A DNA stretch of 64,000 nucleotides from Candidatus Yonathbacteria bacterium RIFCSPLOWO2_01_FULL_47_33b (GTDB lineage: Bacteria; Patescibacteriota; Minisyncoccia; Phycocordibacterales; UBA1550), in assembly GCA_001823575.1 (NCBI GenBank), contig MHUW01000016.1, forward strand, positions 2,099 to 66,098, given 5' to 3'. The position numbers and the translations under genes are program-made. The notes beneath the pieces were generated by a model. The model ran no database searches. It was not told where the DNA came from and worked only from the letters and a program-made list of their open reading frames with translations. This document shows, one piece after another, positions 24,691 through 63,939 of the stretch (positions are counted from its first letter, which is position 1; the number at the start of each line of letters is the position of its first letter).

Positions 24691-24960
24691 TTAACTCAAC
24701 TGCTTGATCGACGGATATTTGGTAAAGATTGGTCCAAGGGCATTCTTTACAATCTGCCCCGAAAGCTCGACGTAGGAGTCTATAAGTTTCTCAAGCGCGT
24801 CTGCGGGGTCACCATTCACCCCCATCACGAGGCCTTCTGGGGAGACTTCGAGCCCGTTGACCTTGCGCGCTCGCGCCACAGCCATATCAGGCCCCAAGAT
24901 AACACTTTGTTTGGCGATGATTTCCGCCATCATTGCTTTGTATTGTTCGTTTTGGTCCAT
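24691..24960 (-). CDS. Hypothetical small protein co-transcribed with the HK/RR
   Basis: 89-aa ORF, 9 nt upstream of the histidine kinase gene on the same strand. Confidence 0.4.
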   Translation of the reverse strand: MDQNEQYKAMMAEIIAKQSVILGPDMAVARARKVNGLEVSPEGLVMGVNGDPADALEKLIDSYVELSGQIVKNALGPIFTKYPSIKQLS

Positions 24961-24971
24961 AGCAGTATTTA

Positions 24972-25361
24972 TTATTCTCCTTTAATAACCTTGAGGAGTT
25001 TGCTTGCCGCAATACCCATCACGATATACCCCACAATAAAGAGTGAGTCATGAACAAGCTTCAAATAGAGAGGTGAGATGTTAGAAAACCAAGGCATCTC
25101 GAGTACAATCCCCACAAAGACAAGGCTCATGCCGATACTAAAGTACGTGAGAACCTGACCCAAAACACCTCCGTGCATCTTGCGACCGCCAACCCACACC
25201 ATGGCGCTTGTAACAAATGCCACAATAAGCATCGACCAAAGAGAAATTGAAGAAAAGAGACCGGAATCATCGAGTGCCAAGAGTGTATCCGTCACTCCCG
25301 CAAACGCCACCGCAGGCAAAAGAACTAAACTTAATAATGCAAGATGCTTCATAGGACTCAT
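24972..25361 (-). CDS. Hypothetical 4-TM membrane protein, first gene of the TCS operon
   Basis: Hydrophobic helices. Start set at MSPMKHLALLSLVLL (ATG 25359-25361). Confidence 0.4.
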   Translation of the reverse strand: MSPMKHLALLSLVLLPAVAFAGVTDTLLALDDSGLFSSISLWSMLIVAFVTSAMVWVGGRKMHGGVLGQVLTYFSIGMSLVFVGIVLEMPWFSNISPLYLKLVHDSLFIVGYIVMGIAASKLLKVIKGE

Positions 25362-25482
25362 AATATGATTACTGATAAATATGGTTTTATTATACCATAC
25401 TAGCAAGAATGCAAGCGAGGGTTCTTTTAGTAACCCCTCACGCACCTCTGTTTGTCATATAAAGGAAGATGGATTGCATTTA

Positions 25483-28400
25483 CTAATTCGTCTTCTGGTC
25501 GGGTATCGTCGTTGCACCCGTGCTCGTTGCGGTGTCACTTGGCGCAACTACGAGTGGCGCAGACGAAACGACATTTACCGTACGCTCTGCGGTCGTCGTG
25601 GCGTTGTTTTGGTCAACGACTGAATACACAATCGTGTGTATGCCTTCTACGGAAGTATCGAGACTTATCTGACTAATGTCCAACTCTGGTCCCCCGTCGA
25701 GCGATGCTTTGATGCCAAAGTTTTTAGCAGACTCCGGTGCGGTAATGAGTGCACCAAGGTCGCCGTAGATATCGCCGATACTGAGTGTGGCAGGGTTGTT
25801 ACCGTTTATGAAAATTATGATGGGGGTTGTCGTTGCCGTAGTGATCTCTGTCGTTAAGATACCACTCACCGTGGTATTGCCAGAAAGAAGCAAGTCTAAC
25901 TGATCTTTAGTAATACAGGTCTCATTCCCCGACTGTCCAACACAAATCTTTTCTTCAGCGTGAAATTCTTTTCCGCGAAATACCCTCGCAACGACCTCCC
26001 CAATTCCATTCGCCGTGTCCGCAAGCCACCCCGTCATCCGATCAAAGAACCTCCCTGCAAAAGTCTTGCCTCCTGTCGTATCAGTCATTGCCGTCGTCGT
26101 AGACGCAAGTCCTTCAAGATTGAGGTCAAGCTCCTTGAGTCCTTGCAGGGTTAAAATAGGGAGCATTGAGTAGTTGACCCCGAGGTAACCGTTTGAGGTG
26201 GTAGCTACCATCCCAGGGAGTACCCGTGCAACGTCCTGTGCGATCAGACCATAGTTGAGAGTAGTGGTGGAGTTATGGAGTTCGTTTCCTGCTATATCGT
26301 TCCAGTAGAATGTTGAAGGAGTGAGCTTGGTGAGGTCTGCCAAGACACTCCCCATCGGCTGGATGTTGGTCTTGAGGGTTGCGTCAGACGAACACACCCC
26401 CGTAAGCGCCGTACCCGCAAAGTTTTCCACACAACCGTTAGTTCCCGAGGTCCCCACACGAATGTCACCTACAACCTGCAAAGATTTTGCAGGTGCTGCG
26501 GTGCCGATGCCGACGTTGCCAGTGTTCCTTATGGTAAAGAGCGTCGTTGTTGCGCTTGCAGTTGAACTTGCAATCGCAAAGAGGGTAGTATTATTTTCAC
26601 CATTGTACGCATGCACGGAGAGTTTGGCGTACGGCGAAGTAGTCCCCATACCAATGCGTCCGCTGGATTCAATGAGTGATGGAGTATTGTTATCAAAAAG
26701 CTGTCCACCGGCAGCAACTGTGCGCGAGATACTGGTCCCATCCATTCGAGTTACATTGTACAAACGCACCACGGAATCCGCGGTCATATTCAAATCGACG
26801 CCGTATGTCCCACTCGTGTGATTGATGTTACCATTTCTTATGACTACATTCGCAGTACTAACATCAATCCCCCTCCCTGTGCCAGAAGAATTTTCGTCAA
26901 TAAGCGATAGATTGTTTATCTCATAGTCACCAATTGACCCTCCTGCCCCAATCACAATAGCTCCTTTTGTTGGATTGGGGCCGATGCCGTGCCTCACCGA
27001 AATATTATTCAAGATCTTTTTGTGGGTATTCCCGCCGGTTGAATAACTATTCATGTATACAAACAAAGCTTCATTATAACCATCGTTATCAATAGACAAA
27101 TTATCTACCCGAACATAGTCTCCAAACAGACGGAGTGCGTGCTCTACTTCTCCTTTAACAACAATATCTGATGCAACAATCCCTGAAAGCGAACCATTAT
27201 CAAAAATGATCGAATTAGAAGACCGCCATTCAATATTTTTAAGCCGCAGGAACGAAAGACCGTCATCTTGGTTTGGCCACAGATAGGTGTCTGAATCCCC
27301 ATTAATAAGTCGCACATGAGAAACAACATTCATGATAGAAAAGTAACCAAACAATGGAATTGCCAATGCTCCATTCATGGCAGGAAGAGTATCTGTAGTG
27401 CCTACGATGTGGTTATTCTGTCCATCAATGGTAATATCAGCTCCTTCGGGCAATCCAACGTCCAGCCCAAGGGGCGTTTCTGCGTCCAGCAATACAATTC
27501 TGTAACGCACCGGCCTTCGAATAACCAAAGGGACATTTGACTGCGATGCCCCAAAAATACCCGTCGCCAAGGTGATGTTCTCGGGGGTAATTGCAGCGTC
27601 AGTTCGCAAGATAGGATAGTTATGTGTGGTATTCTCGCCGCCAACTCCATCGAGAGCAACCATCGCATCATTAGTCACATAGAGAAGATCTCCTGATCGC
27701 ACATCTGCGTTAGCACTACACACCACGCGATTGCTTCCACTCGTCAGGGTACATGTAATCCCCGTATTGGTCACCGTGGTATAGGTATCTCGGGCGGAAA
27801 TATAATCCAACGCATCCTGAATTGTCGCAAAACGACCACCAGTACCTACGGTTAGAGTGTTTGCTGCCGTGGCGCCAACACACGTACCGTTTGCATCCTG
27901 GAAGCATCCCGAGGAAATTTGAATGCCGCCCGAAAATGTCGATGTAGATACACTCGTGCCGGTAAAATAGGACGACACAGTTTCGCCTACTACGGAGAGT
28001 GCGGCGTATGGTGATGTGGTGCCGATGCCGACCTTGCCGGTCGCACGATACACATCACTACCCGAAAGGGTCCAACTTCCGACTGAGCCACCAATAACCG
28101 AGCCTGCCCAATAAAGGTTGCCGGAGTTACTGTAGAGTCTGTTGGTGGTGACACTTGGTGCGGAGACATCGGCAAGGTAGGTGACACCATTCACCGCAAA
28201 GGTGTCTGAGGGGGTGGTGGTGCCGACACCGAGGGTGGTAAAGGAGCCCGTGGAGCCTACGAGATCACCCGACATGGAGCCACCTGCTGTAGGGAGGTAC
28301 CCCGCGATGGTTGTGCCGGTAATAGAAGCACCGGTGATGGTGGGCGACGAGAGGGTGACCGAAGAGAGGTTGTTGATGCGGTTCATTGGTGCCATCGCGA

Positions 28401-28800
28401 GGTAAAGGGCATTGTTGTCGGCCACTGCTTGGGTTTTGCCTCTCGCAATCTCGTTTAAAAGTTCACTACGGAGAGCGGTAATCTGAGTTTCAAGGTCAGC
28501 GGCTGTAATACCGGAAAGAACGCGTGTGTTTGTCGTAGGAGCAGGAGTAACGACGACTTGAGCCGTAGGTCGAGTAGGTGTCATCGACTTGGGAGTCGAA
28601 CTCCCAAGTGATGCTGGCTGTGGTGCGCGTGCTTGCGGAGTTACGGGAAGGGTTGTCGCTGGTTGAACTGGAACAAAGTCCCGACCTTCGGGAGTACCCG
28701 CAAGATCGGGACTTTCAGATGTAGGTGTATTAAAAAGATTATTCCAGAAATCTTGTACCGCGGTGTACACCGAGGCAGCTTGTGTTCGCAATGGAGACAA
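25483..28800 (-). CDS. Giant surface protein with phage tail-fibre-like architecture: P/T-rich linker, GxGTTSPxAxLSV tail-fibre motifs (x2), beta-helix-like repeats, peptidase S74/intramolecular-chaperone domain, C-terminal Ig-like (DUF5011-like) domain
   Basis: Repeated VGIGTTSPYAALSV and IGMGTTSPYAKLSV motifs. IAQDVARVLPGMV...VNYSMLPILTLQGLKELDLNLEGL matches the endosialidase-chaperone (S74) domain. C-terminal DGGPELDISQISLDTSVEGIHTIVYSVVDQNNATTTAERTVNV is Ig-like. The true N-terminus is probably the signal peptide beginning at 28919 (see findings). Confidence 0.75.
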   Translation of the reverse strand: MSPLRTQAASVYTAVQDFWNNLFNTPTSESPDLAGTPEGRDFVPVQPATTLPVTPQARAPQPASLGSSTPKSMTPTRPTAQVVVTPAPTTNTRVLSGITAADLETQITALRSELLNEIARGKTQAVADNNALYLAMAPMNRINNLSSVTLSSPTITGASITGTTIAGYLPTAGGSMSGDLVGSTGSFTTLGVGTTTPSDTFAVNGVTYLADVSAPSVTTNRLYSNSGNLYWAGSVIGGSVGSWTLSGSDVYRATGKVGIGTTSPYAALSVVGETVSSYFTGTSVSTSTFSGGIQISSGCFQDANGTCVGATAANTLTVGTGGRFATIQDALDYISARDTYTTVTNTGITCTLTSGSNRVVCSANADVRSGDLLYVTNDAMVALDGVGGENTTHNYPILRTDAAITPENITLATGIFGASQSNVPLVIRRPVRYRIVLLDAETPLGLDVGLPEGADITIDGQNNHIVGTTDTLPAMNGALAIPLFGYFSIMNVVSHVRLINGDSDTYLWPNQDDGLSFLRLKNIEWRSSNSIIFDNGSLSGIVASDIVVKGEVEHALRLFGDYVRVDNLSIDNDGYNEALFVYMNSYSTGGNTHKKILNNISVRHGIGPNPTKGAIVIGAGGSIGDYEINNLSLIDENSSGTGRGIDVSTANVVIRNGNINHTSGTYGVDLNMTADSVVRLYNVTRMDGTSISRTVAAGGQLFDNNTPSLIESSGRIGMGTTSPYAKLSVHAYNGENNTTLFAIASSTASATTTLFTIRNTGNVGIGTAAPAKSLQVVGDIRVGTSGTNGCVENFAGTALTGVCSSDATLKTNIQPMGSVLADLTKLTPSTFYWNDIAGNELHNSTTTLNYGLIAQDVARVLPGMVATTSNGYLGVNYSMLPILTLQGLKELDLNLEGLASTTTAMTDTTGGKTFAGRFFDRMTGWLADTANGIGEVVARVFRGKEFHAEEKICVGQSGNETCITKDQLDLLLSGNTTVSGILTTEITTATTTPIIIFINGNNPATLSIGDIYGDLGALITAPESAKNFGIKASLDGGPELDISQISLDTSVEGIHTIVYSVVDQNNATTTAERTVNVVSSAPLVVAPSDTATSTGATTIPDQKTN

Positions 28801-28862
28801 AAGTCTGCTTTGCGCAGGTGTAGGAGTTTCTGCTGCAAAACTTACGGGAGACTTATAGAGTA

Positions 28863-28871
28863 CCCCCCCCC
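28863..28871. repeat. Homopolymeric C9 (G9 on the coding strand) tract within the 5' end of the tail-fibre-like gene
   Basis: Nine consecutive C read directly. One extra base (10) would fuse MNPRRVIFVLTLSLILGGG (ATG 28917-28919) in frame with the 1105-aa ORF. Confidence 0.7.
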
Positions 28872-28948
28872 GAGGATGAGTGACAACGTAAGGACAAAAA
28901 TAACTCTGCGAGGGTTCATATATATGAGTATACTAAATGCGTATGACG

Positions 28949-28977
28949 GGTGCAAGAAAAATTATTTTTTGCACCCA
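28949..28977 (-). terminator. Hairpin gggtgcaa-gaaaaattatttt-ttgcaccc downstream of pgi
   Basis: 8-bp stem with an A/T-rich loop and flanks, ~100 nt after the pgi stop. Confidence 0.4.
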
Positions 28978-29075: not shown

Positions 29076-30413
29076 TTACTTCCCCCCTAGGATGCGGCGC
29101 GTTGCTTCCTTGTAGGTCTCCACATTCGGCTGATCAAAAGCGTTGATGTTAAGGAGGTTTGCCAAATGCATCACCATACACATTTCGAACTGAAGGAGCG
29201 CACCGAGTGACTCGAGAGTGAGGTCAGGGAGCTCTATTTCGGCAAACTGCACGCCGCGAGTACGGTATGCCTCTTTTACGCCCTCGTAGATTGCGTCCAT
29301 AATATGGCATGGGGCGCGCCCAGCAAGACCGGGAACAAGGGGCGCAAATACACGATCAGAAGCGAGGAATTCATGCTCCCAATGTGGCGCATTTACTCGT
29401 ACGAGCGTCCGAGCAACAAGAGATGGAAATGCGAGATGCATTTGTTCCGCCGAATGGAGGTCTGTTGAACCGATAGACACCGTAGGTATCATGCGGTGCG
29501 TTGTTGAGGTGCCGTTCTTGGCGGTTTCCTTGCCGAGTGATTCCGCAAAAAGCTGTCGGTACCATTTTCCTAAACTTTCAAACTCTGGTTGAAACAAAAA
29601 CATGTCGAAGACAAGGGCACCGTTTTCGTTCCATGCGAGCACATCTTCAGCGGCACGATATGCGTTACTTTCCACACCACGCTCCACAGAGTCATGCACC
29701 GCCTCTTGTGCACCTTTGAGCATGCGGTCGACTTCGAGCCCCACACAGAGAAGCGGGAAAATACCGACAGGTGAGAAAACTGAATAGCGCCCTCCCACCA
29801 TTTTAGGTATCGGCAAGAGATGAAACCCCTGCTTCTCCCCTGTTTGCCACAGCACCGACCCTTCGTCCGTAATACAGACAATACGGGAAGAAAGCGAGCC
29901 AAGTTTTTGTTCGAGGGCCGTGATTAAAACCGATGCGTTGACGATGGTTTCAGTCGTTGTACCCGACTTGCTTGCTACCACAATAATAAGTTCTTCGGGT
30001 GAAATGATTTCATTTACCAAAATCTCGGTGATGTCAGAGAGGATTTCTGGGGAACACGTATCAGCAAAAAGCATTTTGGGAGCAAACGGGCTGTGAGCAT
30101 CAAGCGTGCCGAAGATCGCTTCGTATACCGCTTTGGTACCCAAATTAGAACCTCCGATACCAATAGTGACCACGTAGTTAAGTTTTGGGCCAGCAAGCTT
30201 TGCCGCCAAGACCCGCGACTTTTCATACAGCACACTATCAAACGGTAGCCGGAGCGACGCTTCGGGAAGCTTGTAAGAACTGTCGCTCATCGCCGCCCGC
30301 ATCGTGGCAGCATACTCCGTTGCTCGGGCGTGGCCTGCCTGAGCGTTGCTCGCAGTCAGGTCACTTACACCCTGTTCCCCACGGTCATTTTTTGCAGAAC
30401 TTTGGTATTTCAT
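29076..30413 (-). CDS. pgi: Glucose-6-phosphate isomerase
   Basis: IGIGGSNLG and SKSGTTTET signatures and GGRYSVFSPVG. Start uncertain (30413 MKYQ or 30473). Confidence 0.85.
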   Translation of the reverse strand: MKYQSSAKNDRGEQGVSDLTASNAQAGHARATEYAATMRAAMSDSSYKLPEASLRLPFDSVLYEKSRVLAAKLAGPKLNYVVTIGIGGSNLGTKAVYEAIFGTLDAHSPFAPKMLFADTCSPEILSDITEILVNEIISPEELIIVVASKSGTTTETIVNASVLITALEQKLGSLSSRIVCITDEGSVLWQTGEKQGFHLLPIPKMVGGRYSVFSPVGIFPLLCVGLEVDRMLKGAQEAVHDSVERGVESNAYRAAEDVLAWNENGALVFDMFLFQPEFESLGKWYRQLFAESLGKETAKNGTSTTHRMIPTVSIGSTDLHSAEQMHLAFPSLVARTLVRVNAPHWEHEFLASDRVFAPLVPGLAGRAPCHIMDAIYEGVKEAYRTRGVQFAEIELPDLTLESLGALLQFEMCMVMHLANLLNINAFDQPNVETYKEATRRILGGK

Positions 30414-30478
30414 TCTTCTATTGTACACGAGAACGAATACTTCCCAAACACCACAAACTTTGCTACCATACACGTATT

Positions 30479-31132
30479 ATGGATACACAAAAAAGAATCA
30501 TTGTTTGGGTTTCGGCAGTTTTGGTTATTGGCATTACCGCCGTCGCGGCATGGCAGATTGCGAAAGGCCCAAAGACACCAGTAGTGCGCGCAGGAACCCT
30601 CACGGAGGTGGTTTCGGAAAGCGACTGGACAAAGGGCGCAACGAGCGAATCCAAAAAGGCGGAACTCGTTGAGTATAGTGATTTCCAGTGCCCTGCATGT
30701 GGTATGTTCTACCCAATACTTGAAGAAATAGCGGCGAGCCACAAAGACACCCTCTCATTCACCTATCGCCACTTCCCTCTCCCTCAGCACAAAAACGCTC
30801 TTGCCGCAGCCTATGCGACAGAGGCAGCCGGACTACAAGGTAAGTTCTGGGAAATGCACGCAAAAATATTCGAGAGTCAGGACGAGTGGTCTGAGACCGA
30901 CACCGCGGAGGCAACCTTTGAAAAATTTGCGACCGAGCTTGAGCTCGACATGGCGCGCTTTACAACTGACCGTGATTCACAAACAACCAAGGATGCTGTC
31001 GAGTATGACAAAGAGACTGGACTAAAGTCTGGCGTTAACTCAACACCCTCGTTCTACTTGAACGGAAAGAAGATGGCACAGCCAAAAAGCGCAGAAGAAT
31101 TCAAGGCAACCATTGAAGCTGCTCTTAAATAA
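30479..31132 (+). CDS. DsbA-family thiol:disulfide oxidoreductase (thioredoxin fold, membrane-anchored)
   Basis: N-terminal TM anchor. Active site CPAC in the FQCPACGMFYP context. Start at MDTQKRIIVW (30479); the ORF track's longer 30185 start overlaps pgi and was rejected. Confidence 0.8.
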   Translation: MDTQKRIIVWVSAVLVIGITAVAAWQIAKGPKTPVVRAGTLTEVVSESDWTKGATSESKKAELVEYSDFQCPACGMFYPILEEIAASHKDTLSFTYRHFPLPQHKNALAAAYATEAAGLQGKFWEMHAKIFESQDEWSETDTAEATFEKFATELELDMARFTTDRDSQTTKDAVEYDKETGLKSGVNSTPSFYLNGKKMAQPKSAEEFKATIEAALK

Positions 31133-31133
31133 A

Positions 31134-31583
31134 ATGAACAAAGTTCTTCCTACATCCCTCATTGTCGTAGTCATCATACTCGCCCTCGTCGGGTTCGCTG
31201 ATTCGACGTTCCTCCTTGCCAAGCGCTTGTCTGGCGGGCCAATCCCCTGCGTCCTCGGCTTTACGGGATGCGACACCGTATCAAAGTCTCCCTACTCGGT
31301 ACTCTTTGGCATTCCTCTCTCCGCATACGGTATGGTGTTTTATCTCGGTATCGGCATTCTCGGGCTTTTGTATCTCGACACCAAGAAAGCGCTCTTCGCG
31401 CGCCTTCTCCTCCCCGCAACCGCACTCGGTTTTGCAATGTCCGCGTACTTCATCTACGTGCAAAAGTTTCTCATCAAAGCTTTTTGTGTGTACTGCATCC
31501 TCTCCGCAATCATTTCAACGATGTTGTTTTGTTTGGGGGTAATAATCCACAGGAAACTAAAGGCTTCAGCTGCTCAGCAATAG
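31134..31583 (+). CDS. Vitamin K epoxide reductase (VKOR) family protein
   Basis: 4-5 TM protein with loop cysteines PCVLGFTGC and TM CxxC (CVYC). Start 2 nt after the dsbA-like stop. Confidence 0.75.
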   Translation: MNKVLPTSLIVVVIILALVGFADSTFLLAKRLSGGPIPCVLGFTGCDTVSKSPYSVLFGIPLSAYGMVFYLGIGILGLLYLDTKKALFARLLLPATALGFAMSAYFIYVQKFLIKAFCVYCILSAIISTMLFCLGVIIHRKLKASAAQQ

Positions 31584-43570: not shown

Positions 43571-45937
43571 TTACTGCCACTTCCAGTTGAGAATCTCGGG
43601 GAGGTCCTCGCCGTGCTTGTTGATGTATTCTTTGTGCTCGATGAGTTTATCCTGCATCATTTGCTTGAGGTACGCACCCTTTGATTCAAACTTGGGCAAA
43701 CGGCCGACGACATCCATCACGAGATGGTAGCGATCCATGTCATTAAGAACCGTCATGTCGAAGTTTGTCGTAATGGTTCCCTCTTCCTTGTAGCCACGTA
43801 CGTGGATATTTTTATGATTGTTTCGTCTGTACGTAAGGCGGTGAATAAGCCATGGGTAACCATGAAAGGCGAACATAACTTGTTTGTCTTTCGTAAAGAG
43901 CGAATCAAAGTCAGTGTCACTCAGTCCGTGTGGGTGCTCAGATTGTGGCTGCAGTTTCATAAGGTCGACAATATTCACCATACGAATTTTTATTTCAGGG
44001 ATATGTTCGCGCAAAATCATAATAGCAGCAAGAATCTCTCGCGTTGGCACATCACCGCAACTCACCATGACAACATCGGGTTCAGCACCTTGGTCATTAC
44101 TTGCCCACGACCAAATACCAACGCCCTCAGAGCAGTGCCTTACCGCAGCATCCATAGAGAGCCATTGCGGTGCTTGATATTTACCGGCAATCACCACATT
44201 CACATAGTGACGGCTACGCAAACAGTGGTCGTAGACAGAGAGAAGGCAGTTCGCATCGGGAGGAAGGTACACGCGCACCACCTCAGCTTTTTTATTGACC
44301 ACCGTATCAATAAACCCTGGGTCCTGATGCGTGAAACCATTGTGTGCCTGCTGCCACACGTGTGATGCGAGCAGATAATTGAGTGATGCGAGTTTTCTGC
44401 GCCATGGTAGTTTCAAGGTTACCTTGAGCCACTTTGCATGCTGATTGAACATTGAGTCAACAATATGTATGAATGCCTCATAACTGTTAAAGACCCCGTG
44501 ACGCCCCGTAAGGAGGTAGCCTTCTAGCCACCCCTCACATTGATGTTCACTCAACATTTCCATTACCCTCCCGTCTGTTGAGAGAAATTCATCACCCTCT
44601 TGTGTTCGCGCATTCCACTGACGATTAGTAACATCAAATATCGAGTTCAGCCGATTAGAGAGTGTTTCATCTGGCCCAAAAATCCTGAAATTGCGAGCTT
44701 CTTTATTGAGCTCGATGATGTCGCGGAAAAATCCTCCAAGAATTTCAGTGTCTGCGGCTAAAACTGAACCAGGAGAAGGGACGTCTACGGCATATTTTTC
44801 AAAATCAGGAAGAATGAGGTCTTTAAGGAGTAGCCCTCCGTTAGTATGAGGATTGGCACCCATTCTGCTCTGCCCCTTCGGCGCGAGCTCGGCAAGTTCA
44901 GCTATGAGTTTTCCCTCTTCATCAAAAAGCTCCTCGGGGCGATAACTCTTCATCCACTGTTCAAGCTGCGCAAGATGCTCTGGATGTTTGCGGTCTATAG
45001 AAAGTGGTACCTGGTGCGAACGGAAGGATCCCTCGTTGGGTAGTCCGTCAACTTCCTTTGGCCCCGTCCAGCCCTTTGGTGTCTGGAGAACAATCATTGG
45101 CCAACGTGGGCGTGACGCATCTCTGTGGACGCGCGCATGTTGTTGTATCCGTTTAATTTCACTGATAGTCTTGTCGAGCACAGCAGCCATTTGCTGATGC
45201 ACAATTTCCGAGTCGCTACCTTCGACAAAATACGGCTCCCATCCATACCCACGAAAAAGCTGTTCAAGTTCCTCGCGTTCGATACGTGCAAAAATGGTGG
45301 GGTTTGCAATCTTATATCCGTTCAAGTGGAGGATCGGGAGCACGGCGCCATCGGTGATGGGATTAAGAAATTTATTTGAATGCCATGAGGTAGCGAGTGG
45401 CCCCGTCTCTGCTTCACCGTCACCTACCACGCACGCAACCACGAGATCGGGGTTATCAAAAACAGCGCCAAAAGAATGACTAAGTGAGTACCCAAGCTCC
45501 CCCCCCTCATGCATAGAACCAGGGCACTCGGGAGAGACGTGACTCGGAATACCACCAGGGAAAGAAAACTGTGTAAAGAGTTTTTTCATCCCCTCTTCGT
45601 CCTGACTAATGTTTGGGTAGGTCTCGGTATAGGTTCCCTCAAGATACGTGTTTGCCACCAGTGCAGGCCCGCCGTGCCCTGGACCCGAAACATACAGCAT
45701 ATTGAGGTCAAAATTCTTGATGACGCGATTGAGGTGTACGTAAATAAAATTCTGTCCCGGTGTTGTCCCCCAATGCCCGAGCAAGGTTGGCTTCACGTGT
45801 GAAAAATCAAGTGGTTTTTTAAGGAGCGGGTTATCAAAGAGGTAAATTTGTCCCACCGACAAATAATTCGCGGCATGCCAATAAGCATCCATCTTGCGGA
45901 GGAGTTCAGGAGAAAGTGGTTTTTCTATGGTGTGCAT
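43571..45937 (-). CDS. xfp: Xylulose-5-phosphate/fructose-6-phosphate phosphoketolase
   Basis: 788 aa. N-terminus [15 protein letters not shown]...[10 protein letters not shown] and GPGHGG are canonical XFP signatures. Confidence 0.95.
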
Positions 45938-47631: not shown

Positions 47632-48333
47632 CTAATACACCACCTCGGGGTCTTCTTGAGTAATAAGCTCGTAAGGGATAAGCTCGTTGTCTCGACACAA
47701 AAAGTATGGAAGTTGGTTGTGGGTAAAGTTCACAATATCATTCGTATTTTTGTCTTTCCATTTTGTCGCAATCTTTTTCATAAGCGCCCGCTCTTCTACC
47801 GAAAGCGTCTGTATCTTTTCGTTCTTGTTACTGTCAGACTCACTCACTAAAAGCATATCCTTGCCGTCTGCATTTTTGCGCTCTATCACAATCTTGCCAG
47901 ACTCCTCAAGCTCATCAAGGGCGCGGAAAAAAGTGTCCGGAACAGGACCATAAGCGATCTTGCGATATTGCATACCGCTCATACTTTCAAGGTTTTCGTA
48001 GAACCAAGCAAAATCTGCAAGATACAACAGTTTGGCAAGTTTTGTTTTCGTAACTTTGCCGTCATCTTTCTGCGTTAGGCTCATGCGTAAAAAAGAGAGA
48101 ATCATGTGCTTATACTTCCCAATATTGGGGATAGCGCCAGAAAGCAGAGCGTCTACGCCGATACTAAAGAAGCTTGCGAGTTTCTTTGCCTCCTCAACAT
48201 CAAGAGGCTGCTTCCCCGCCTCTATGGCAGTATAGGTAGAACGAGAAACCCCAATAGCCGTAGACACCTGTTCCTGAGAAAGCCCCCTTTCCACACGAAG
48301 ATTCTTGATAAATTGCGCATATTTATTAGTCAT
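47632..48333 (-). CDS. XRE-family HTH fused to Panacea (DUF4065/SocA-like) antitoxin domain
   Basis: N-terminal LSQEQVSTAIGVSRSTYTAIEAGKQ HTH. C-terminal KLAKLLYLADFAWFYENLESMSGMQYRKIAYGPVPDTF matches the Panacea core. Confidence 0.6.
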   Translation of the reverse strand: MTNKYAQFIKNLRVERGLSQEQVSTAIGVSRSTYTAIEAGKQPLDVEEAKKLASFFSIGVDALLSGAIPNIGKYKHMILSFLRMSLTQKDDGKVTKTKLAKLLYLADFAWFYENLESMSGMQYRKIAYGPVPDTFFRALDELEESGKIVIERKNADGKDMLLVSESDSNKNEKIQTLSVEERALMKKIATKWKDKNTNDIVNFTHNQLPYFLCRDNELIPYELITQEDPEVVY

Positions 48334-48457
48334 CCACACATTATACACAATTTTATGCATAAAAAGCAAGCATTTTTGGTTAAGGTTTCATACAATGTGT
48401 GCTATGGTTAAAATACTGGCGTAGTCGAGCCAGTGTAACCAAACTAAACAAACCGCG

Positions 48458-48664
48458 ATGGCAAAATATTACGTAAACAAAAACGCGCAACTGAATGGTG
48501 ATCATGAAGTGCACATTATTAATTGCTCACGATTACCAAACCCAGAAAACAGGTTGTATTTGGGAGACCTTGTCTATTGCTGGCAAGCAGTAAACGAAGC
48601 AAAGAGACACTATCGGCAGTCTAATGGCTGCTATTACTGCTCAAACCCTTGTCACACACAGTAG
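48458..48664 (+). CDS. Small Cys-rich hypothetical protein (68 aa)
   Basis: ORF with C-x19-C ... NGCYYCSNPCH cysteine pattern. Function unknown. Confidence 0.35.
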   Translation: MAKYYVNKNAQLNGDHEVHIINCSRLPNPENRLYLGDLVYCWQAVNEAKRHYRQSNGCYYCSNPCHTQ

Positions 48665-48714
48665 CCCAGGGTGAGGTCAATTGAGTAAAATGTGACGGAC
48701 TATTGAGAGCCAAT

Positions 48715-48808
48715 GGAGAAGGAGGAATGATTGAGTTATGACCACTCCCCTACGGCGCTAGAAAGGCACATCTCACTCATAACAAAACCCACTTTCGTGG
48801 GTTTTGTT
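48715..48808. repeat. Copy A of a ~95-bp repeated element (GGAGAAGG..ATGAT...ACGGCG.TAGAAAGGCAC...CTCATAACAAAACCC-hairpin-GGGTTTTGTT)
   Basis: About 75% identical to 50410-50510. Ends in a terminator-like hairpin aaacccac-tttc-gtgggttt. Confidence 0.6.
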
Positions 48809-48903
48809 ATGATTCGACTTCGGACATAAAAAGCGAGATCAAAAAACTTACCTGCTTATAATACTATTTGATTAGATAATTTTTACCTAATCAATATGAT
48901 TCA

Positions 48904-50268
48904 TCAATCAAACAGAGTTGGTTGTTTTATTTTTGTATCGCTGATGTCTTTCTTTACCCCGATTTCTGATTCAAACCACCACTTCAACGGCTGGTATTCG
49001 TCCGTAAGCCCAAAATAAACCATCTTCCCTTTTCTTTCTTTCTCCTCAAGAATGCCGAGATCTTTTAGGGGTTTAAAATAGTACCCAGAAATATTAGAAG
49101 ATTGTTTCCCTAAAATAGTAGATGCCTCTTTCGTACTTATATATTTGTTATTTTTCACAAGAAATGTGAGGATACTTTGCTTCCCTGGCGACAAGTCTGA
49201 CGACACTCTTTCCCAGCGCTCTCGGCCAAGAAGTGTCATTGCTTCATTCATCGACAACGGCTGCACCACGCGATCACTACATTGTCCGAGGATGTCCTTA
49301 ATACCTGTCATGATTGAGCGAATGTCGCCATGATACAGATCGTGCAGTCGAAAAACGACCTCGTCGTCAATCGGCTTAATATACTGTTGAACATTTTTTG
49401 ATTTTAAAAGTTCCATTCTTTTTTCAAAAGCACGCACTACCTCGGTTTTACTCAAAGGTTTCACAACAAGAGGTGTGCGAGTAAAAATACTTTTTACTCG
49501 TTGCTCGGGGGCAATTATTTGACTATAAAAATCTGATGGGCCAAGAAACAAAGAGTACACATCTTTCGTTTGAAGAATGTCTCGGATTTCATTAAAAAAT
49601 GAAATTACCTTTTTCTTGTTATTTTTATCCTTCAAAACAACATCAAAATTGTTTACATGAATAACAAGCCCATAATACTGACGTCCTCCGATTGTTTTTG
49701 TCTTAATAAAACCCAGGAGGTTTAAAAAATGCTGTTCAATTGATGTGGTTGTTAATTTTATAGGTGAGGAGGTGTTTCGTTCTTTACTAAAATTAACCCC
49801 GCCCCCAAAACCAGCGACATCCGCAGAAATACCACCAGAAATTGACATCATTTGGGTAAAATCAATAATAGCATTGAGCTTTGCGAGTGTTGGGTCGGTT
49901 AAAAGCTTCGGCTCTACTAGGGCTATTTCTCGAAGCATCGACCCTATCACCTCCAACAGAAAATTCTGTTTATCCAAGAGTGTGTCCGATGCCTCAATCT
50001 CTCTTCGGCATGAAAAAAGTGGCTTCTCTTTGTCTTGTTTCCAAATAAACTTCTGAAAGTTTGCCAGACTTGTTTTCCCAACACCAGTATCCCCGCACAC
50101 CGTAAGACAAATATTGTTTTCTGACTTAAAAAGACTGCTGAGAAGTTTTCTTTCGTGATCGCGACCAATAAAAGCATCCTCAAGAGAAAGCTCTCCGCCG
50201 TCAACAAGAGGAAGTGTGTCGTATGGGTTTGTTTTCAGCCCGAATTGTTGCCAGCTAATGATTTGCAT
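48904..50268 (-). CDS. AAA+ ATPase, ORC/Cdc6- or STAND-like (Walker A GDTGVGKTS)
   Basis: NPYDTLPLVDGGELSLEDAFIGRDHERKLL then P-loop, the FxGRExE + P-loop arrangement of ORC/Cdc6-like AAA_16 ATPases. C-terminal region is wHTH-like. Confidence 0.55.
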   Translation of the reverse strand: MQIISWQQFGLKTNPYDTLPLVDGGELSLEDAFIGRDHERKLLSSLFKSENNICLTVCGDTGVGKTSLANFQKFIWKQDKEKPLFSCRREIEASDTLLDKQNFLLEVIGSMLREIALVEPKLLTDPTLAKLNAIIDFTQMMSISGGISADVAGFGGGVNFSKERNTSSPIKLTTTSIEQHFLNLLGFIKTKTIGGRQYYGLVIHVNNFDVVLKDKNNKKKVISFFNEIRDILQTKDVYSLFLGPSDFYSQIIAPEQRVKSIFTRTPLVVKPLSKTEVVRAFEKRMELLKSKNVQQYIKPIDDEVVFRLHDLYHGDIRSIMTGIKDILGQCSDRVVQPLSMNEAMTLLGRERWERVSSDLSPGKQSILTFLVKNNKYISTKEASTILGKQSSNISGYYFKPLKDLGILEEKERKGKMVYFGLTDEYQPLKWWFESEIGVKKDISDTKIKQPTLFD

Positions 50269-50409
50269 AATTCTATACTATAGGCTTTTCAAATTCATCT
50301 ATATCTATCTATAATGGCTTATTATAAGGCGAAAAGCAAGTTATCCACAGCTTAAATTTATGTGTAAAAATATATAACTAATAACCATACTGGATTATAG
50401 GGAGCCCGC

Positions 50410-50510
50410 GGAGAAGGGGGGATGATAGGTTGCGACTACTCACCAACGGCGATAGAAAGGCACCCCTCGCTCATAACAAAACCCCACGTAAATATTTACG
50501 CGGGGTTTTG
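50410..50510. repeat. Copy B of the ~95-bp repeated element
   Basis: Aligns to 48715-48808. Hairpin ccccacgtaaata/tttacgcgggg at its 3' end, directly after the stop of the 50516..51016 gene. Confidence 0.6.
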
Positions 50511-50515
50511 TTTAA

Positions 50516-51016
50516 TTACTTCTGCGTCGATTCTTTTTTGTTTATCAAGCGATTATTATTTCTTATTATTTTTTTCAAAATCATTACATTATAGTTAGAC
50601 AATTTTGCAACCAACTGGTTATATGTTCTTTGTTTTTTCTGAGCCTCCTTGTTCAAGTCTTCAATTGAATGATCTAGTAACCGATGAACAAGTTGTATTC
50701 TGAATGAATTAAACTCATTCAACTGAGAAATTATCTCCTTGTCGTCACAATACCGCGAGAAAATACCGATAAGTTGACCGAGTGTTTTTTCTCTTAACTC
50801 CTTTGGTTTTGTTTTTACAAACCTTAACTTACTTTTCTTTAATAATCTCACAAACCATTCTTCTTGATATCCTATAGCATTTTGTAATATATGCTCGATT
50901 ACCGCCAAATATAAATAAGACGCCTCTAGAAAAAAATTATTATTTGTTAGCTCATCAATTCGTGGATCGATATATTCATCCCAGTTTTTATTTCGGTCAT
51001 TCATTAGATTCATCAA
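50516..51016 (-). CDS. Hypothetical protein with HEPN-like R-x4-H motif (FRIQLVH)
   Basis: 166 aa, K/E-rich. Motif R-I-Q-L-V-H is paralogous to R-N-Q-L-L-H in the 52095..52700 protein. Confidence 0.35.
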   Translation of the reverse strand: MMNLMNDRNKNWDEYIDPRIDELTNNNFFLEASYLYLAVIEHILQNAIGYQEEWFVRLLKKSKLRFVKTKPKELREKTLGQLIGIFSRYCDDKEIISQLNEFNSFRIQLVHRLLDHSIEDLNKEAQKKQRTYNQLVAKLSNYNVMILKKIIRNNNRLINKKESTQK

Positions 51017-51025
51017 AGTGGTTAC

Positions 51026-51799
51026 TTACCTACTCGTATACTTCTTATATAACTCAAATAAAAAAATGAATGCAGGAATTATTAGAGTTATGAGTTTAAA
51101 AAATACAAACGATAAGGCTAAGAAAGTTGCAAGAAAAAATACCAAACGGGCTCTTATATAGATCGACGAACTTGATGTATCAATAGCATATCCCCCAACA
51201 AGGTTACGCACTACGGATATCTTTCTTCCCCCGTCAAGATTTAGCTCCTCCATCCGAGCTAGCCCCAAATAACTATATTCAATTGTTGAACTTGCGTATT
51301 CTTTCAATTTTTTTGTCTCCAACTGGAAACACTTTTGAGGTGAATTAAATTCACGATAAATTTCATCAACAGAAAGACCGTTTTGATAGTACAAACGTAC
51401 CGCCATAGAACCAAGTTTATTACTTTTACCAAAATCACTTTTATTTAGGTCGTCTGTGTAGAAAGTAAACGGTACCCCTGGACTATTGCTATCAGCATGA
51501 AAAAACCGAAAACTATTTTTGTTTACTAAACACATTTCATGTTTATTAAAAGGAAGGTAAAGGCTTCCATTTAAAATTTCTTTTATATCTTCCCCGATTG
51601 GTAAATCTATTTTGTTGATTTCCTGATCTATTCCGATACTAAATCCGTCAAGAGGGAATCTCTGATAAACCGGCCAATAAAGGAAGGTGGTTAATACTAG
51701 CGCTAAGGTAGCAGAAATTAAAATTATTAAAGACTTACTATTCCCCGAACCAATTGCAGTTCGCTGGAGTGCCTGCTCATCTTGGTTATTTGAAATCAT
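51026..51799 (-). CDS. Hypothetical membrane protein (N- and C-terminal TM segments)
   Basis: 257 aa. TM near the N-terminus (LIILISATLALVLTTFLYW) and C-terminus (LVFFLATFLALSFVFFKLITLIIPAFIFLF). 10 nt upstream of the HEPN-like gene. Confidence 0.4.
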   Translation of the reverse strand: MISNNQDEQALQRTAIGSGNSKSLIILISATLALVLTTFLYWPVYQRFPLDGFSIGIDQEINKIDLPIGEDIKEILNGSLYLPFNKHEMCLVNKNSFRFFHADSNSPGVPFTFYTDDLNKSDFGKSNKLGSMAVRLYYQNGLSVDEIYREFNSPQKCFQLETKKLKEYASSTIEYSYLGLARMEELNLDGGRKISVVRNLVGGYAIDTSSSSIYIRARLVFFLATFLALSFVFFKLITLIIPAFIFLFELYKKYTSR

Positions 51800-52094
51800 T
51801 ATATGTTTCGATGCGTGTCGGTCTTAAGACCAACCGCTGACTCAGGGGTCAGTATCCAAATTTTATTATCTCCCTATTAGAGGACGCAGAATATATGGAA
51901 AGTTTGTATACTAAATATGTGAACATTAGAACGGTTTTAGGGCGAGAGTAATTCAGACTCAAATACCGTTCGATGGGTATAATATGACATTGGAGCCTCT
52001 TTAGGCCAACAGTTCCCTGTTACAAGTTCAATTCCTTGTAGGGAGTCAAGGGGTTTAATGCTTTCCTTATGGGTACTCTGAACACGGGGGCGCA

Positions 52095-52700
52095 TTATCT
52101 TAACCTTGGCAAGAAGGTGTCATTCAAATAAGTTTCTTTGAAGTTTTCTTTTCCACTTGCAGTAAGGGGTGAATCTAGTTTGTCTAAATAAAATCTCATC
52201 CCTTCAAAAATAAACTGAAAATTCAATATGTGTCTTTTTAGGTTTTCTAAATTTATATTTTGTTTTAACCTAGAATGCCTATTTGTCCTACCATCAAATA
52301 CAGTACTAATTGCGTGACCGTGAAGTAATTGATTGCGCATCGCAGAAAAATCTTTTAAGTTTCCTATTATACTATGGTATCTAGTTGCCTCTCTTAATTC
52401 CTCCTCGCTTGTGAAGTTAAATTTTGAATTATAGATGAACATAATTGTTTTATCTATAAAATTAACAGAATCTACATTCTTTATTATTTCAAATGTATCC
52501 ACATCTTTTTTAATTGACAATAGAGATAAATTTCTAAAAAAAGCATTGAGGCTAACCTCAAGCACTAAATGTAGGCTGATGAATATATCAATCATATCAT
52601 TTGCTGACAAATCAGAGTCCCTGATTAGGATCGAGCATCTTTCTTTGTTTGAGCTAATTAAATAACCTGATTCTGTTCTCATAGAAATTTCTTCATTCAT
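52095..52700 (-). CDS. Hypothetical protein with HEPN-like R-N-x3-H motif (AMRNQLLHGH)
   Basis: 201 aa. The R-N-Q-L-L-H motif fits the Rx4-6H HEPN signature, with the RNxxxH subtype. Confidence 0.35.
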   Translation of the reverse strand: MNEEISMRTESGYLISSNKERCSILIRDSDLSANDMIDIFISLHLVLEVSLNAFFRNLSLLSIKKDVDTFEIIKNVDSVNFIDKTIMFIYNSKFNFTSEEELREATRYHSIIGNLKDFSAMRNQLLHGHAISTVFDGRTNRHSRLKQNINLENLKRHILNFQFIFEGMRFYLDKLDSPLTASGKENFKETYLNDTFLPRLR

Positions 52701-52711
52701 TATTTTTTAAT

Positions 52712-55153: not shown

Positions 55154-55178
55154 ATCAAAACTCTATCATTTTTAGTTC

Positions 55179-56292: not shown

Positions 56293-56594
56293 AACAGGGC
56301 CAATTTATTCTACAACCCCTCCATAAGCGTTCCTTAAACCATCCTTGAACCTTCCTATAACCGACCAGGAACCAACCCGCTACCGTCTGTAAGCCATCTG
56401 GGAACCGACACTTTGTTTATCCTTATACTGTCCTATAAGCGACCCATAACCGACTTAGAGGGATTTGACCGTATTTAAAACCGCGTACAATCGGTTGTGC
56501 TGGGCGGAATACGTTGAGAGGTAAAATGGTACTACTTCGACTATCAACTATGGTTTACGAAAGGACTAGAGGGTGATAAGAAGGGGCTTAGTGT

Positions 56595-57230: not shown

Positions 57231-57246
57231 ATTTTTATAGATAGAG

Positions 57247-57900: not shown

Positions 57901-57913
57901 ATTTAGGAGTTAT

Positions 57914-58831: not shown

Positions 58832-59020
58832 ATCTCTGTGTTAATTTCGGCTTAAGACAAAGGTGGTAACCCCCAGTGCCATAAATAACCCACCACCAAT
58901 CACTGCGCCAAGAGATGATCCGCTATCTATGCTTGCAAATATACCCAGAAAAACCGCCCAAACTCCAATGAGTATTGATAAACTCCCTAGAATTTTTGTG
59001 AATGTGTTCATATTTTTATT

Positions 59021-59761: not shown

Positions 59762-59948
59762 ACAAAAAGCCCACCACATGAGTAACGACCGAAATCGTTC
59801 ATACAAGTTTCCCTGTATGGCCCGGAAAGACAACCCCATATGATGGGTTTTTTACGTCTTTCCGGGACTTTTTCGCCATGCCACTGATTACTCAAGGGTT
59901 TAGGCTACTTCTTTATTCAGTTGTACTTAAATCCTAACAGTTTTACGG

Positions 59949-60752: not shown

Positions 60753-61026
60753 CGGGGATCTCCCCCGATATTAAGAAGGTAAAAAAACGAGCCTTATAAA
60801 GTTAGGTTCGTTTTTTTATTTTTCCTATCACCTAAAAAGTTATTGACATCAAAAAAGAGGTTTTGGTCAGATATCACTATGTCATCGACAAGTGAGGCCA
60901 AAAACAAAAAACAACCCTTGGACGAGGCAGTTGATTTGTTTGCTTCTATTATGGTCTCACTCATCGATGAGGTGGGTTTAGCAAAAAAAGAATCGCAAAG
61001 AGTCATCAGTAATTTATCCAACAATA

Positions 61027-63307: not shown

Positions 63308-63341
63308 ATGCATTTTTTGCCCTTACGGCCACACATGCCGT

Positions 63342-63911: not shown

Positions 63912-63939
63912 TTTTTAATCATACCAAACTTTGCACAAA

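What the first reader, a model, noticed from the sequence alone, without database searches (positions are those of the whole stretch)
25483..28800. Chromosomal, non-prophage giant protein built from phage tail-fibre modules
The protein combines two GxGTTSPYAxLSV tail-fibre motifs, an endosialidase-type intramolecular chaperone/peptidase S74 domain (IAQDVARVLPGMV...VNYSMLPILTLQGLKELDL) located internally rather than at the extreme C-terminus, and a C-terminal Ig-like DUF5011-type domain. There are no other phage genes nearby; the neighbours are a two-component system and pgi. In an organism with episymbiont-like gene content, this could be a host-attachment adhesin. The S74 domain normally autocleaves, so the C-terminal Ig-like domain might be released or retained.
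Basis: partly seen in the sequence, partly recalled or inferred. Interest (0 to 1): 0.55.

Follow-up and report, generated by a model that had tools for sequence, protein, structure and literature searches.

The report
Switchable phage-fibre-like surface protein, CPR bacterium
A tiny groundwater bacterium (Candidatus Yonathbacteria) carries a chromosomal, secreted surface-fibre gene built from phage tail-fibre and tailspike parts, and a run of 9-11 G's in its export signal appears to switch it on and off between otherwise identical populations.

Summary
ORF 25483-28800(-) encodes two GxGTTSPYAxLSV motifs, a Peptidase_S74 domain (aa 805-865) with an invariant Ser805/Lys810 pair, and a C-terminal Ig-like domain (PF16403). 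The neighbours are housekeeping genes, not phage genes.

The gene model is incomplete. The real start is the ATG at 28919, which opens a Sec signal peptide. A G9 run (28863-28871) puts that peptide out of frame with the body.

Contigs that are otherwise almost identical, from other assemblies, carry G10 (in frame, 1145 aa). A paralogue carries G10 (in frame), G11 or G8TGG (both out of frame). In one 7.1-kb comparison the run length is the only difference.

The central 415 aa form a right-handed beta-helix. Only 24 relatives turned up among 1.84 billion proteins. The two whose genomic context could be read lie in phage structural gene clusters. The paralogue keeps both ends but has an unrelated centre.

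Best reading: a trimeric, tailspike-like glycan-binding surface fibre, matured by S74 self-cleavage and switched by strand slippage in the G run. It is OFF in this window. The main rival is homopolymer assembly error. The architecture is common in Patescibacteria and annotated but uncharacterised. I found no report of this kind of switching in the group.

The parts
25483..28919 (-). Whole gene as it would read with a G10 run: 1145 aa. In this window (G9) it is split into a 25-codon leader ORF and the 1105-codon body ORF 25483-28800.
   Evidence: Adding one G gives a protein identical to database protein P0146.
28724..28955 (-). Conserved 5' module shared with the paralogue: upstream region, ATG, signal peptide and the first ~25 mature residues. 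It is 95% identical in DNA to the paralogue; the other alignable gene segments are 79-84% identical.
   Evidence: L005 2773-3005 against window 28955-28724.
28831..28919 (-). Signal-peptide coding region (MNPRRVIFVLTLSLILGGGVLYKSPVSFA|AE in the in-frame allele). ATG at 28917-28919. Predicted signal peptidase I site after SFA.
   Evidence: The cleavage site is read by eye from the n/h/c regions and the AXA rule, not from a predictor.
28863..28871 (-). Poly-G run (G9 here, C9 on the + strand) encoding Gly17-19 of the signal peptide. G10 is in frame. G9 and G11 are out of frame.
28842..28844 (-). TAA stop that ends the leader ORF after 25 codons in the G9 (OFF) frame.
28525..28728 (-). Pro/Thr-rich, probably disordered spacer (ORF aa ~25-92).
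   Evidence: composition.
28321..28524 (-). Conserved neck (RVLSGITAADLETQITALRSELLNEIARGK...NRINNLSSVTLSSPTITG). It is shared by many family members and is a probable coiled-coil trimerisation segment.
   Evidence: the same motif in P0004, P0005, P0166, P0167. The coiled-coil reading is inference.
27991..28029 (-). First GxGTTSPYAxLSV stalk motif (aa 258-270).
26656..27900 (-). Central right-handed parallel beta-helix (aa 301-715), tailspike/pectate-lyase fold. This is the variable receptor-binding cassette.
   Evidence: AF2 model pLDDT 83, pTM 0.85. Foldseek against PDB and BFVD. 24 relatives in 1.84e9 proteins. Phage context of the relatives.
26614..26652 (-). Second GxGTTSPYAxLSV stalk motif (aa 717-729), inside the PHROG tail-fibre match.
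26206..26388 (-). Peptidase_S74 / intramolecular chaperone domain (aa 805-865). Ser805 is at 26386-26388 and Lys810 at 26371-26373. The predicted cleavage is between Ser804 and Ser805.
   Evidence: (S and K invariant in 17 sequences).
25915..25944 (-). Two invariant cysteines (C953, C962) in a predicted beta-hairpin of the conserved linker after S74 (...WLADxxNGI...LCV...G..C.T..QL..LL).
25570..25809 (-). C-terminal Ig-like domain (PF16403, aa 998-1077).
   Evidence: Model pLDDT ~90 over this domain. Foldseek finds Big_3/PKD/Rib/SGBP-type Ig folds.

Best explanation
The gene encodes a Sec-exported protein that most likely assembles into a trimeric fibre on the surface of a CPR bacterium (Candidatus Yonathbacteria RIFCSPLOWO2_01_FULL_47_33b). 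It is built like a phage receptor-binding protein.

From N to C terminus it has: a cleavable signal peptide; a short conserved N-terminal segment and a Pro/Thr spacer; a neck; GxGTTSP stalk repeats; a central tailspike-type beta-helix that binds, and possibly cuts or modifies, a surface polysaccharide of the partner cell; a second stalk segment; and an S74 intramolecular chaperone.

By analogy with endosialidase and MyRF, the S74 domain should drive trimer folding and then cut the chain before Ser805 (Ser845 in full-length numbering). That would free a ~300-aa C-terminal piece made of the S74 domain, a Cys hairpin and the Ig-like domain.

Expression is set by the length of a poly-G run in the signal-peptide codons. 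G10 is ON. G9 (this window) and G11 are OFF and stop within a few codons. A paralogue in the same genome has the same 5' switch and the same two ends but a different centre (SGNH/GDSL-like), so the cell could vary stochastically which binding specificity it displays.

Shown here: the domain content, the conserved Ser/Lys pair, the beta-helix fold, the phage context of the beta-helix relatives, the chromosomal context, the frameshift, and the run-length differences between assemblies. Inferred: trimerisation, self-cleavage, glycan binding, host attachment, and real reversible switching.
For: - **Domains:**
- **Ser805/Lys810:** invariant in 17 aligned relatives. The S-x4-K motif is kept in 56 of the 144 proteins then on hand.
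- **S74 fold:** the C-terminal model's best PDB match is the MyRF ICA domain 7dc3, and endoNF 3gw6 is also listed. The S74 region matches 331 phage records at 30-37% identity, many under annotated tail-fibre genes.
- **Beta-helix:** model pLDDT 83. Best structural matches are phage capsule depolymerases and tailspikes (7w1c, 7vul, 4ru4, 4ru5) and GH87/GH110 enzymes. Relatives P0123 and P0124 lie among capsid, portal and nozzle genes.
- **Signal peptide and frameshift:**. The window plus one G equals P0146 exactly.
- **Run alleles:** window and L013 have G9; L010, L011 and L012 have G10. In the paralogue, L005 and L015 have G10, L014 has G11 and L001 has G8TGG.
- **The run is the hot spot:** L011 against the window shows 0 mismatches and 1 gap in 7108 nt. 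L014 against L015 shows 1 mismatch and 1 gap in 9444 nt.
- **Independent states:** in assembly ERZ27254767 gene 1 is ON and gene 2 OFF; in ERZ27254752 both are ON.
- **Control:** the only other long G/C run in the window, an in-frame G8 in phosphoketolase, gives one exact 788-aa protein on 5 contigs.
- **Cassette layout of the paralogues:** the ends are 79-80% identical and the centres unrelated.
- **Non-phage synteny:**
Against: - All run-length data come from assembled consensus sequences, not reads. Long G runs are prone to errors, and some assemblies may share raw data.
- One allele (L001) differs by a T inside the run rather than by a G. L014 also carries a C-to-G change 2 nt upstream of the run. 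Both look as much like sequencing artefacts as like slippage.
- One ENA assembly has a split pgi (314 + 138 aa), so frameshifts outside the run do occur in these data.
- No cell-surface anchor was found: no LPXTG, lipobox or C-terminal transmembrane segment. How, or whether, the fibre stays on the cell is unknown.
- The beta-helix matches have low TM-scores (0.3-0.4), so only the fold class is established. No catalytic residues were assigned.
- The monomer model of the S74 region has low confidence (pLDDT 50-74).
- More distant relatives lack the G-rich signal peptide, so the switch is confined to this lineage.
Confidence: 0.6

Rival explanations
1. The gene is always in frame (G10). The G9, G11 and G8TGG versions are homopolymer sequencing or assembly errors, so there is no switch, only an ordinary constitutive surface protein.
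For: The differences are confined to a 9-11-nt G run, a classic error site. L001 has a T inside the run and L014 a C-to-G change 2 nt upstream of it, which look like base-calling noise. A split pgi in one assembly shows that other frameshift artefacts exist. Only consensus sequences were available.
Against: Three lengths recur across ENA, JGI and NCBI assemblies, with several contigs per allele. The G8 run in phosphoketolase never varies over 5 contigs. Within single assemblies the two paralogues show different states. A consensus needs a majority of reads to carry the error. From my own knowledge, not checked here: Illumina indel error at G9-10 is normally well below 50%.
Confidence: 0.22
2. 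The G9 allele is expressed anyway. RNA polymerase slippage or ribosomal frameshifting on the G run restores the frame in a fraction of transcripts, so the run tunes the expression level rather than acting as a heritable ON/OFF switch.
For: The run is long enough for slippage. From my own knowledge, transcriptional slippage rescues frameshifted genes at homopolymers in reduced endosymbiont genomes. The body ORF stays intact for 1105 codons.
Against: DNA-level length differences exist between populations, which slippage at the RNA level does not require. No frameshift-stimulating structure was sought or seen. Known efficient slippage mostly involves A/T runs.
Confidence: 0.08
3. The protein is a secreted, soluble polysaccharide-degrading enzyme used for feeding or for breaking down biofilm or capsule, not an adhesin that holds the cell to a host.
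For: The fold is that of depolymerases and glycoside hydrolases. There is a cleavable signal peptide and no recognisable anchor. The paralogue carries an SGNH/GDSL-like module.
Against: The long stalk, neck and spacer architecture and the S74 chaperone are typical of fibres that display a binding tip at a distance. Many relatives have N-terminal transmembrane anchors, some with a cytoplasmic HTH domain. No catalytic residues were identified.
Confidence: 0.15
4. The locus is a decaying pseudogene or a prophage remnant: a tail-fibre gene left behind by a lost phage.
For: All recognisable modules have phage relatives. This window carries a frameshift. A mobile island lies at 48-64 kb.
Against: The 3.3-kb body ORF has no other lesion, and intact alleles differ from this window by at most two substitutions over 9.4 kb (none in 7.1 kb) apart from the run. 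There is no phage gene within about 20 kb. Housekeeping synteny is stable. The family has well over a hundred members in Patescibacteria chromosomes, with signal peptides or transmembrane anchors that phage fibres lack.
Confidence: 0.04

Closest known systems
Phage endosialidase / tail-fibre C-terminal intramolecular chaperone (Peptidase S74; endoNF of phage K1F, PDB 3gw6)
   Same: Pfam PF13884 match. Ser-x4-Lys pair with the same spacing. The domain follows a repetitive stalk. PHROG tail-fibre profiles align over the stalk plus S74.
   Different: It is encoded in a bacterial chromosome and carries a Sec signal peptide. S74 is not terminal: a conserved Cys hairpin and an Ig-like domain (240 aa in all) follow it. 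Cleavage was not shown here.
MyRF / MrfA ICA domain (eukaryotic membrane-bound transcription factor, PDB 7dc3)
   Same: Best structural match of the C-terminal model (TM 0.59 on the target). It is a precedent for an internal S74-type domain with further domains C-terminal to the cut site. In MyRF, cleavage separates an N-terminal trimer from the C-terminal part (my own knowledge of the family).
   Different: MyRF is eukaryotic and sits on the cytoplasmic face of the ER. Its C-terminal part holds a transmembrane anchor. Here the C-terminal part is an extracellular Ig-like domain with no anchor.
Phage tailspike capsule/O-antigen depolymerases (Klebsiella phage K1 lyase 7w1c, P560 7vul, Pseudomonas phage LKA1 gp49 4ru4)
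   Same: Right-handed parallel beta-helix of similar length. The stand-alone sequence relatives of the central domain whose context could be read lie in phage structural modules.
   Different: No sequence family membership (no Pfam or PHROG hit). TM-scores are only 0.3-0.4. The domain is embedded in the middle of a longer cellular fibre. Activity is unknown.
Homopolymer contingency loci of host-associated bacteria (e.g. poly-G in the signal-peptide region of Neisseria pilC; poly-G/C runs of Campylobacter jejuni, PMC4965091)
   Same: A G run of 9-11 in the 5' coding region of a surface-protein gene. Length changes toggle the frame. ON and OFF alleles are found in almost identical genomes. Two paralogues vary independently.
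   Different: The lineage: I found no paper linking Patescibacteria/CPR with this mechanism. Switching was not observed directly, and rates are unknown.
Patescibacteria 'tail fiber domain-containing' / 'immunoglobulin-like domain-containing' large proteins (names in NCBI annotation)
   Same: Same family: neck motif, GxGTTSPYAKLSV repeats, S74, WLAD...LCV...C linker, PF16403.
   Different: This member is short, has a cleavable signal peptide instead of an HTH-plus-transmembrane or long N-terminal region, carries a rare beta-helix cassette, and has the poly-G run.

Membership tests
Peptidase S74 / intramolecular chaperone auto-processing domain | Match to the family profile above the curated threshold | tested here: met
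   PF13884, 42.8 bits against a cut-off of 22, aa 805-865; the same in P0146 and P0151.
Peptidase S74 / intramolecular chaperone auto-processing domain | Catalytic Ser and Lys five residues apart at the start of the domain | tested here: met
   S805-D-A-T-L-K810. Both are invariant in the 17-sequence alignment A2. The motif is present in 56 of the 144 proteins then on hand.
Peptidase S74 / intramolecular chaperone auto-processing domain | Characteristic fold (strands plus a long C-terminal helix forming a trimer) | tested here: inconclusive
   The monomer model has low confidence here (pLDDT 50-74) but has the expected elements, and its best PDB match is the MyRF ICA domain; endoNF 3gw6 is also listed. 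No trimer model could be made.
Peptidase S74 / intramolecular chaperone auto-processing domain | Self-cleavage and release of the C-terminal part after trimer assembly | not testable with these tools
   Needs protein expression or proteomics.
Phage tailspike beta-helix depolymerase | Right-handed parallel beta-helix | tested here: met
   AF2 pLDDT 83, pTM 0.85. Foldseek finds tailspikes and depolymerases, E 1e-4 to 1e-6.
Phage tailspike beta-helix depolymerase | Sequence relatives encoded among phage structural genes | tested here: met
   P0123 lies next to Mu-like protease and capsid genes. P0124 lies in a cluster with connector, capsid and nozzle genes. Only 2 of the 24 relatives could be placed in context.
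Phage tailspike beta-helix depolymerase | Identifiable catalytic acidic residues and enzymatic activity | not tested
   Invariant D71, R129 and D261 of the domain alignment are candidates only.
Simple-sequence-repeat phase-variable (contingency) locus | Homopolymer run of 7 or more in the promoter or 5' coding region | tested here: met
   G9 at 28863-28871, in codons 17-19. It is one of only two G/C runs of 7 or more in 64 kb.
Simple-sequence-repeat phase-variable (contingency) locus | Run-length differences between otherwise (nearly) identical genomes that toggle the frame | tested here: met
   G9, G10 and G11 across the window and eight other loci, in contigs 99.95-100% identical. OFF frames stop within 3-7 codons.
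Simple-sequence-repeat phase-variable (contingency) locus | Mixed lengths within a population and reversible switching at high rate | not testable with these tools
   Needs read-level data or culture. Only assembly consensus sequences were available.
Prophage / phage remnant | Adjacent phage structural, lysis or integration genes | tested here: not met
   All called neighbours from 17 to 38 kb are cellular genes or genes with no Pfam match; none hits a phage family. The nearest mobile element starts near 48 kb and has no structural genes.
Trimeric autotransporter adhesin (name given by JGI to relative P0041) | C-terminal YadA-type beta-barrel membrane anchor | tested here: not met
   No such Pfam hit even at E <= 1. 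The C-terminus is an Ig-like domain plus a short tail.
Bacterial surface Ig-like domain (PF16403, former DUF5011) | Profile match and Ig-like beta-sandwich | tested here: met
   27.3 bits against a cut-off of 27, so borderline; 34.4 bits in the paralogue. Model pLDDT ~90 with Ig-fold matches.

The most novel reading that the evidence does not exclude
This would be the first contingency locus described in the Candidate Phyla Radiation. An ultra-small episymbiont would use strand slippage in a poly-G run to switch two phage-derived receptor-binding fibres on and off independently. The two fibres share their ends but carry different central binding cassettes. The cell would thus vary its host-attachment specificity stochastically, much as phages change host range by swapping tailspikes.
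Probability: 0.45. Interest if true: 0.75.

Novelty: new variant of a known kind. Interest (0 to 1): 0.6.

Why it matters
How CPR/Patescibacteria recognise and hold on to their hosts is largely unknown, and almost none can be grown in culture.

This locus offers a concrete candidate for the attachment molecule: a fibre with a phage-type binding module. It also offers a simple genetic marker, the G-run length, that existing metagenomic reads can score sample by sample.

If the switch is real, three things follow:
- Surface variation in these bacteria uses classic contingency loci as well as the diversity-generating retroelements already reported for the group (my own knowledge).
- Cellular lineages have taken over phage receptor-binding cassettes as exchangeable parts.
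- Automated annotation is mis-calling these genes. The NCBI entry for this one starts at an internal Met and lacks the signal peptide.

Tried and rejected
- Sequence search of the whole protein against PDB chains found nothing useful.
- NCBIfam gave no hit.
- The word-indexed search with the central domain returned nothing, not even the 94% relative. Only the exhaustive HMMER search found relatives.
- Pfam and PHROGs on the central domain and its relatives gave no family.
- Searching viral contigs for central-domain relatives failed. The alignment was too divergent and P0121 had no match. P0121's own contig was too short to be informative.
- The genome-contig scan gave only three Yonathbacteria/Patescibacteria loci, all cut at contig ends and without the 5' region.
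- P0003's contig also starts inside the gene.
- Look-ups of P0001, P0145 and P0148 found no contig.
- The last homology search, with the N-terminal 279 aa, returned only short fragments whose signal peptides are not G-rich. The switch could therefore not be traced beyond this lineage.
- The sigma-70 and terminator scans found no more sites than in shuffled sequence.
- Rejected: prophage, trimeric autotransporter and pseudogene readings (see the rival explanations and membership tests).
- Considered and left open: a possible leaderless transcript (a TATACT box 7 nt before the ATG, with no Shine-Dalgarno sequence). This was seen by eye only.


Full report

Yes. The ORF 25483-28800 on the minus strand (1105 codons) is there.
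- Pfam finds Peptidase_S74 at aa 805-865 (E 6.5e-11) and the Ig-like family PF16403 (formerly DUF5011) at aa 998-1077, the latter only just above its threshold.
- The two quoted GxGTTSPYAxLSV motifs lie at aa 258-270 and 717-729, with two weaker copies at aa 191 and 764.
- PHROG tail-fibre profiles match, but only over aa ~708-896, that is the second stalk motif plus S74.
- The S74 region also matches 331 phage records at 30-37% identity, many under annotated tail-fibre genes.
- S74 is internal: 240 residues follow it.

**2. Context**

Every called neighbour from 17 to 38 kb is a cellular gene or has no Pfam match; none hits a phage family. They include dCTP deaminase, thyA, L11, NusG, SIMPL, a response regulator, a GAF-PAS histidine kinase, two small genes of unknown function, pgi, DsbA plus VKOR, an M23 peptidase and an MFS transporter.

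The flanking gene order is kept in every contig read for this gene. A relative in another Yonathbacteria genome lies beside rpoB, rpoC and dnaG.

The organism is Candidatus Yonathbacteria bacterium RIFCSPLOWO2_01_FULL_47_33b, and the gene is A2937_00155. A low-GC mobile island lies at 48-64 kb but has no phage structural genes. The prophage reading is therefore rejected.

**3. The gene model is wrong at the 5' end**

The closest database protein (P0001) starts 40 residues earlier, with MNPRRVIFVLTLSLILGGGVLYKSPVSFAAE, a typical Sec signal peptide.

In the window that ATG is at 28917-28919. A run of nine G's (28863-28871) puts it out of frame with the body, and the leader ORF stops after 25 codons. 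Adding one G gives a 1145-aa protein identical to database protein P0146.

**4. The run length differs between almost identical populations**

| Gene | Locus | Run | State |
|---|---|---|---|
| This gene | window, L013 | G9 | OFF |
| This gene | L010, L011, L012 | G10 | ON |
| Paralogue (A2937_03480) | L005, L015 | G10 | ON |
| Paralogue | L014 | G11 | OFF |
| Paralogue | L001 | G8TGG | OFF |

The paralogue shares the same promoter region and signal peptide at 95% DNA identity.
- L011 differs from the window by nothing except the run over 7108 nt. L014 and L015 differ by one substitution plus the run over 9444 nt.
- In one assembly gene 1 is ON and gene 2 OFF; in another both are ON.
- The protein database holds matching long (ON) and short (OFF, called from internal starts) versions of both genes, several of them on more than one contig.
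- The only other G/C run of 7 or more in the window is an in-frame G8 in phosphoketolase. It gives one exact protein on five contigs.

This is the pattern expected of a slipped-strand contingency locus. The caveats are real:
- Only consensus sequences were available.
- Two alleles carry odd base changes in or next to the run.
- One assembly has a split pgi.
- Some assemblies may share reads.

I put real length variation at about 70-75%.

**5. Anatomy of the protein**

After the signal peptide come a short conserved segment (QDFWNNLF), a Pro/Thr spacer, and a neck motif shared across the family. Stalk repeats follow.

*Central domain (aa 301-715).*
- It has no Pfam or PHROG family.
- The exhaustive search found only 24 relatives among 1.84 billion representatives, mostly stand-alone proteins of 400-560 aa.
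- Two of those relatives could be placed in context. Both lie in phage structural modules: one Mu-like with capsid and protease genes, the other a T7-like cluster with connector, capsid and nozzle genes.
- The AlphaFold model built from their alignment is confident (pLDDT 83, pTM 0.85) and is a right-handed beta-helix.
- Its nearest structures are phage capsule depolymerases and tailspikes and GH87/GH110 enzymes, at fold-level similarity only.

*C-terminal region.*
- Ser805 and Lys810 are invariant across 17 relatives.
- So are two cysteines in a conserved linker after S74.
- The monomer model is poor for the S74 part, as expected for an obligate trimer, but its best PDB match is the MyRF ICA domain, and endoNF is also listed.
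- The Ig-like domain is modelled with confidence.

**6. The paralogue and the wider family**

The two paralogues are 79-80% identical over the first ~310 and the last ~380 residues and unrelated in between. The paralogue's centre is 40% identical to a region of P0077, a protein that carries a GDSL-type esterase hit (PF13472). Such modules also occur in phage tailspikes (my own knowledge).

More widely, 140 relatives were found, almost all named ones from Patescibacteria. Many of them combine S74 with PF16403.
- Where the S-x4-K motif is present, 200-585 residues usually follow the serine.
- Many relatives have N-terminal transmembrane anchors or HTH-plus-transmembrane regions.

So an internal S74 followed by an Ig-like domain is the rule in this family, not an oddity of this gene.

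**7. Mechanism proposed**

The protein is exported and trimerises under the guidance of S74. It then cuts itself before Ser805 and presents the beta-helix as a glycan-binding, possibly glycan-cutting, tip or side module toward the partner cell. Expression is gated by the G run, and the gene is OFF in this window.

Unknown: how the fibre stays on the cell, since no anchor motif was found, and what the released fragment (S74, Cys hairpin, Ig-like domain) does.

**8. Novelty**

The family is annotated ('tail fiber domain-containing protein') but not characterised. Homopolymer phase variation is classic in Neisseria and Campylobacter. Searches of the held literature found no paper linking it with Patescibacteria or CPR, and none linking S74 with CPR.

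I rate it a new variant of a known kind, with interest 0.6.

Noticed in passing
window 48000-64000: Low-GC (36-43%) island. It holds a STAND-NTPase-like gene, a Mutator-family transposase fragment (55309-56271), a DnaD-like replication-initiator ORF (61027-61524) and a large serine recombinase (61681-63264) whose end overlaps tRNA-His (63234-63306). It is probably an integrated mobile element. No phage structural genes were seen.
   Followed up: partly
window 45499-45506: This is the only other long G/C run in the window (G8 on the minus strand). It lies in frame in phosphoketolase, where it encodes the HEGGELGY stretch, and is invariant in five contigs. It served as a control.
   Followed up: yes
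window 25483-28919 (NCBI OHA83508.1, A2937_00155): The public annotation starts this gene at an internal Met (1033 aa). Other gene callers start at a GTG (1095 aa). All of them lose the signal peptide because of the frameshift. The paralogue OHA84282.1 is truncated in the same way (1147 aa against 1197 aa).
   Followed up: yes
L001/L005/L014/L015 (paralogue locus): The paralogue sits directly downstream of a HicA toxin gene with a small partner ORF and an SLT_2 lytic transglycosylase, and upstream of bipA.
   Followed up: no
L005 7295-7321 against L001 10433-10459: Five substitutions cluster in a 27-nt imperfect palindrome in the intergenic region upstream of bipA, between contigs that are otherwise 99.9% identical. 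The cause is unknown.
   Followed up: no
window 30185-31583 and 25915-25944: A DsbA-like thioredoxin gene and a VKOR gene (a disulfide-forming pair) lie two genes from the fibre gene. The fibre's conserved linker has two invariant cysteines. A functional link is possible, but the proximity may be coincidence.
   Followed up: no
window 24691-25445: Two small conserved ORFs lie between the fibre gene and the histidine kinase. One is a 126-aa membrane protein with a signal peptide and several hydrophobic segments; the other is an 89-aa soluble protein. Neither has a Pfam family. The same order is kept in all related contigs.
   Followed up: partly
pgi (window 29076-30473) in a 65,595-bp ENA contig: In one assembly pgi is split into 314-aa and 138-aa pieces. 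Frameshifts or errors outside homopolymer runs therefore do occur in these data sets.
   Followed up: no
window 28920-28955: A TATACT box lies 7 nt upstream of the ATG, and there is no Shine-Dalgarno-like sequence. The transcript may be leaderless. This was seen by eye; the promoter scan did not report it.
   Followed up: no
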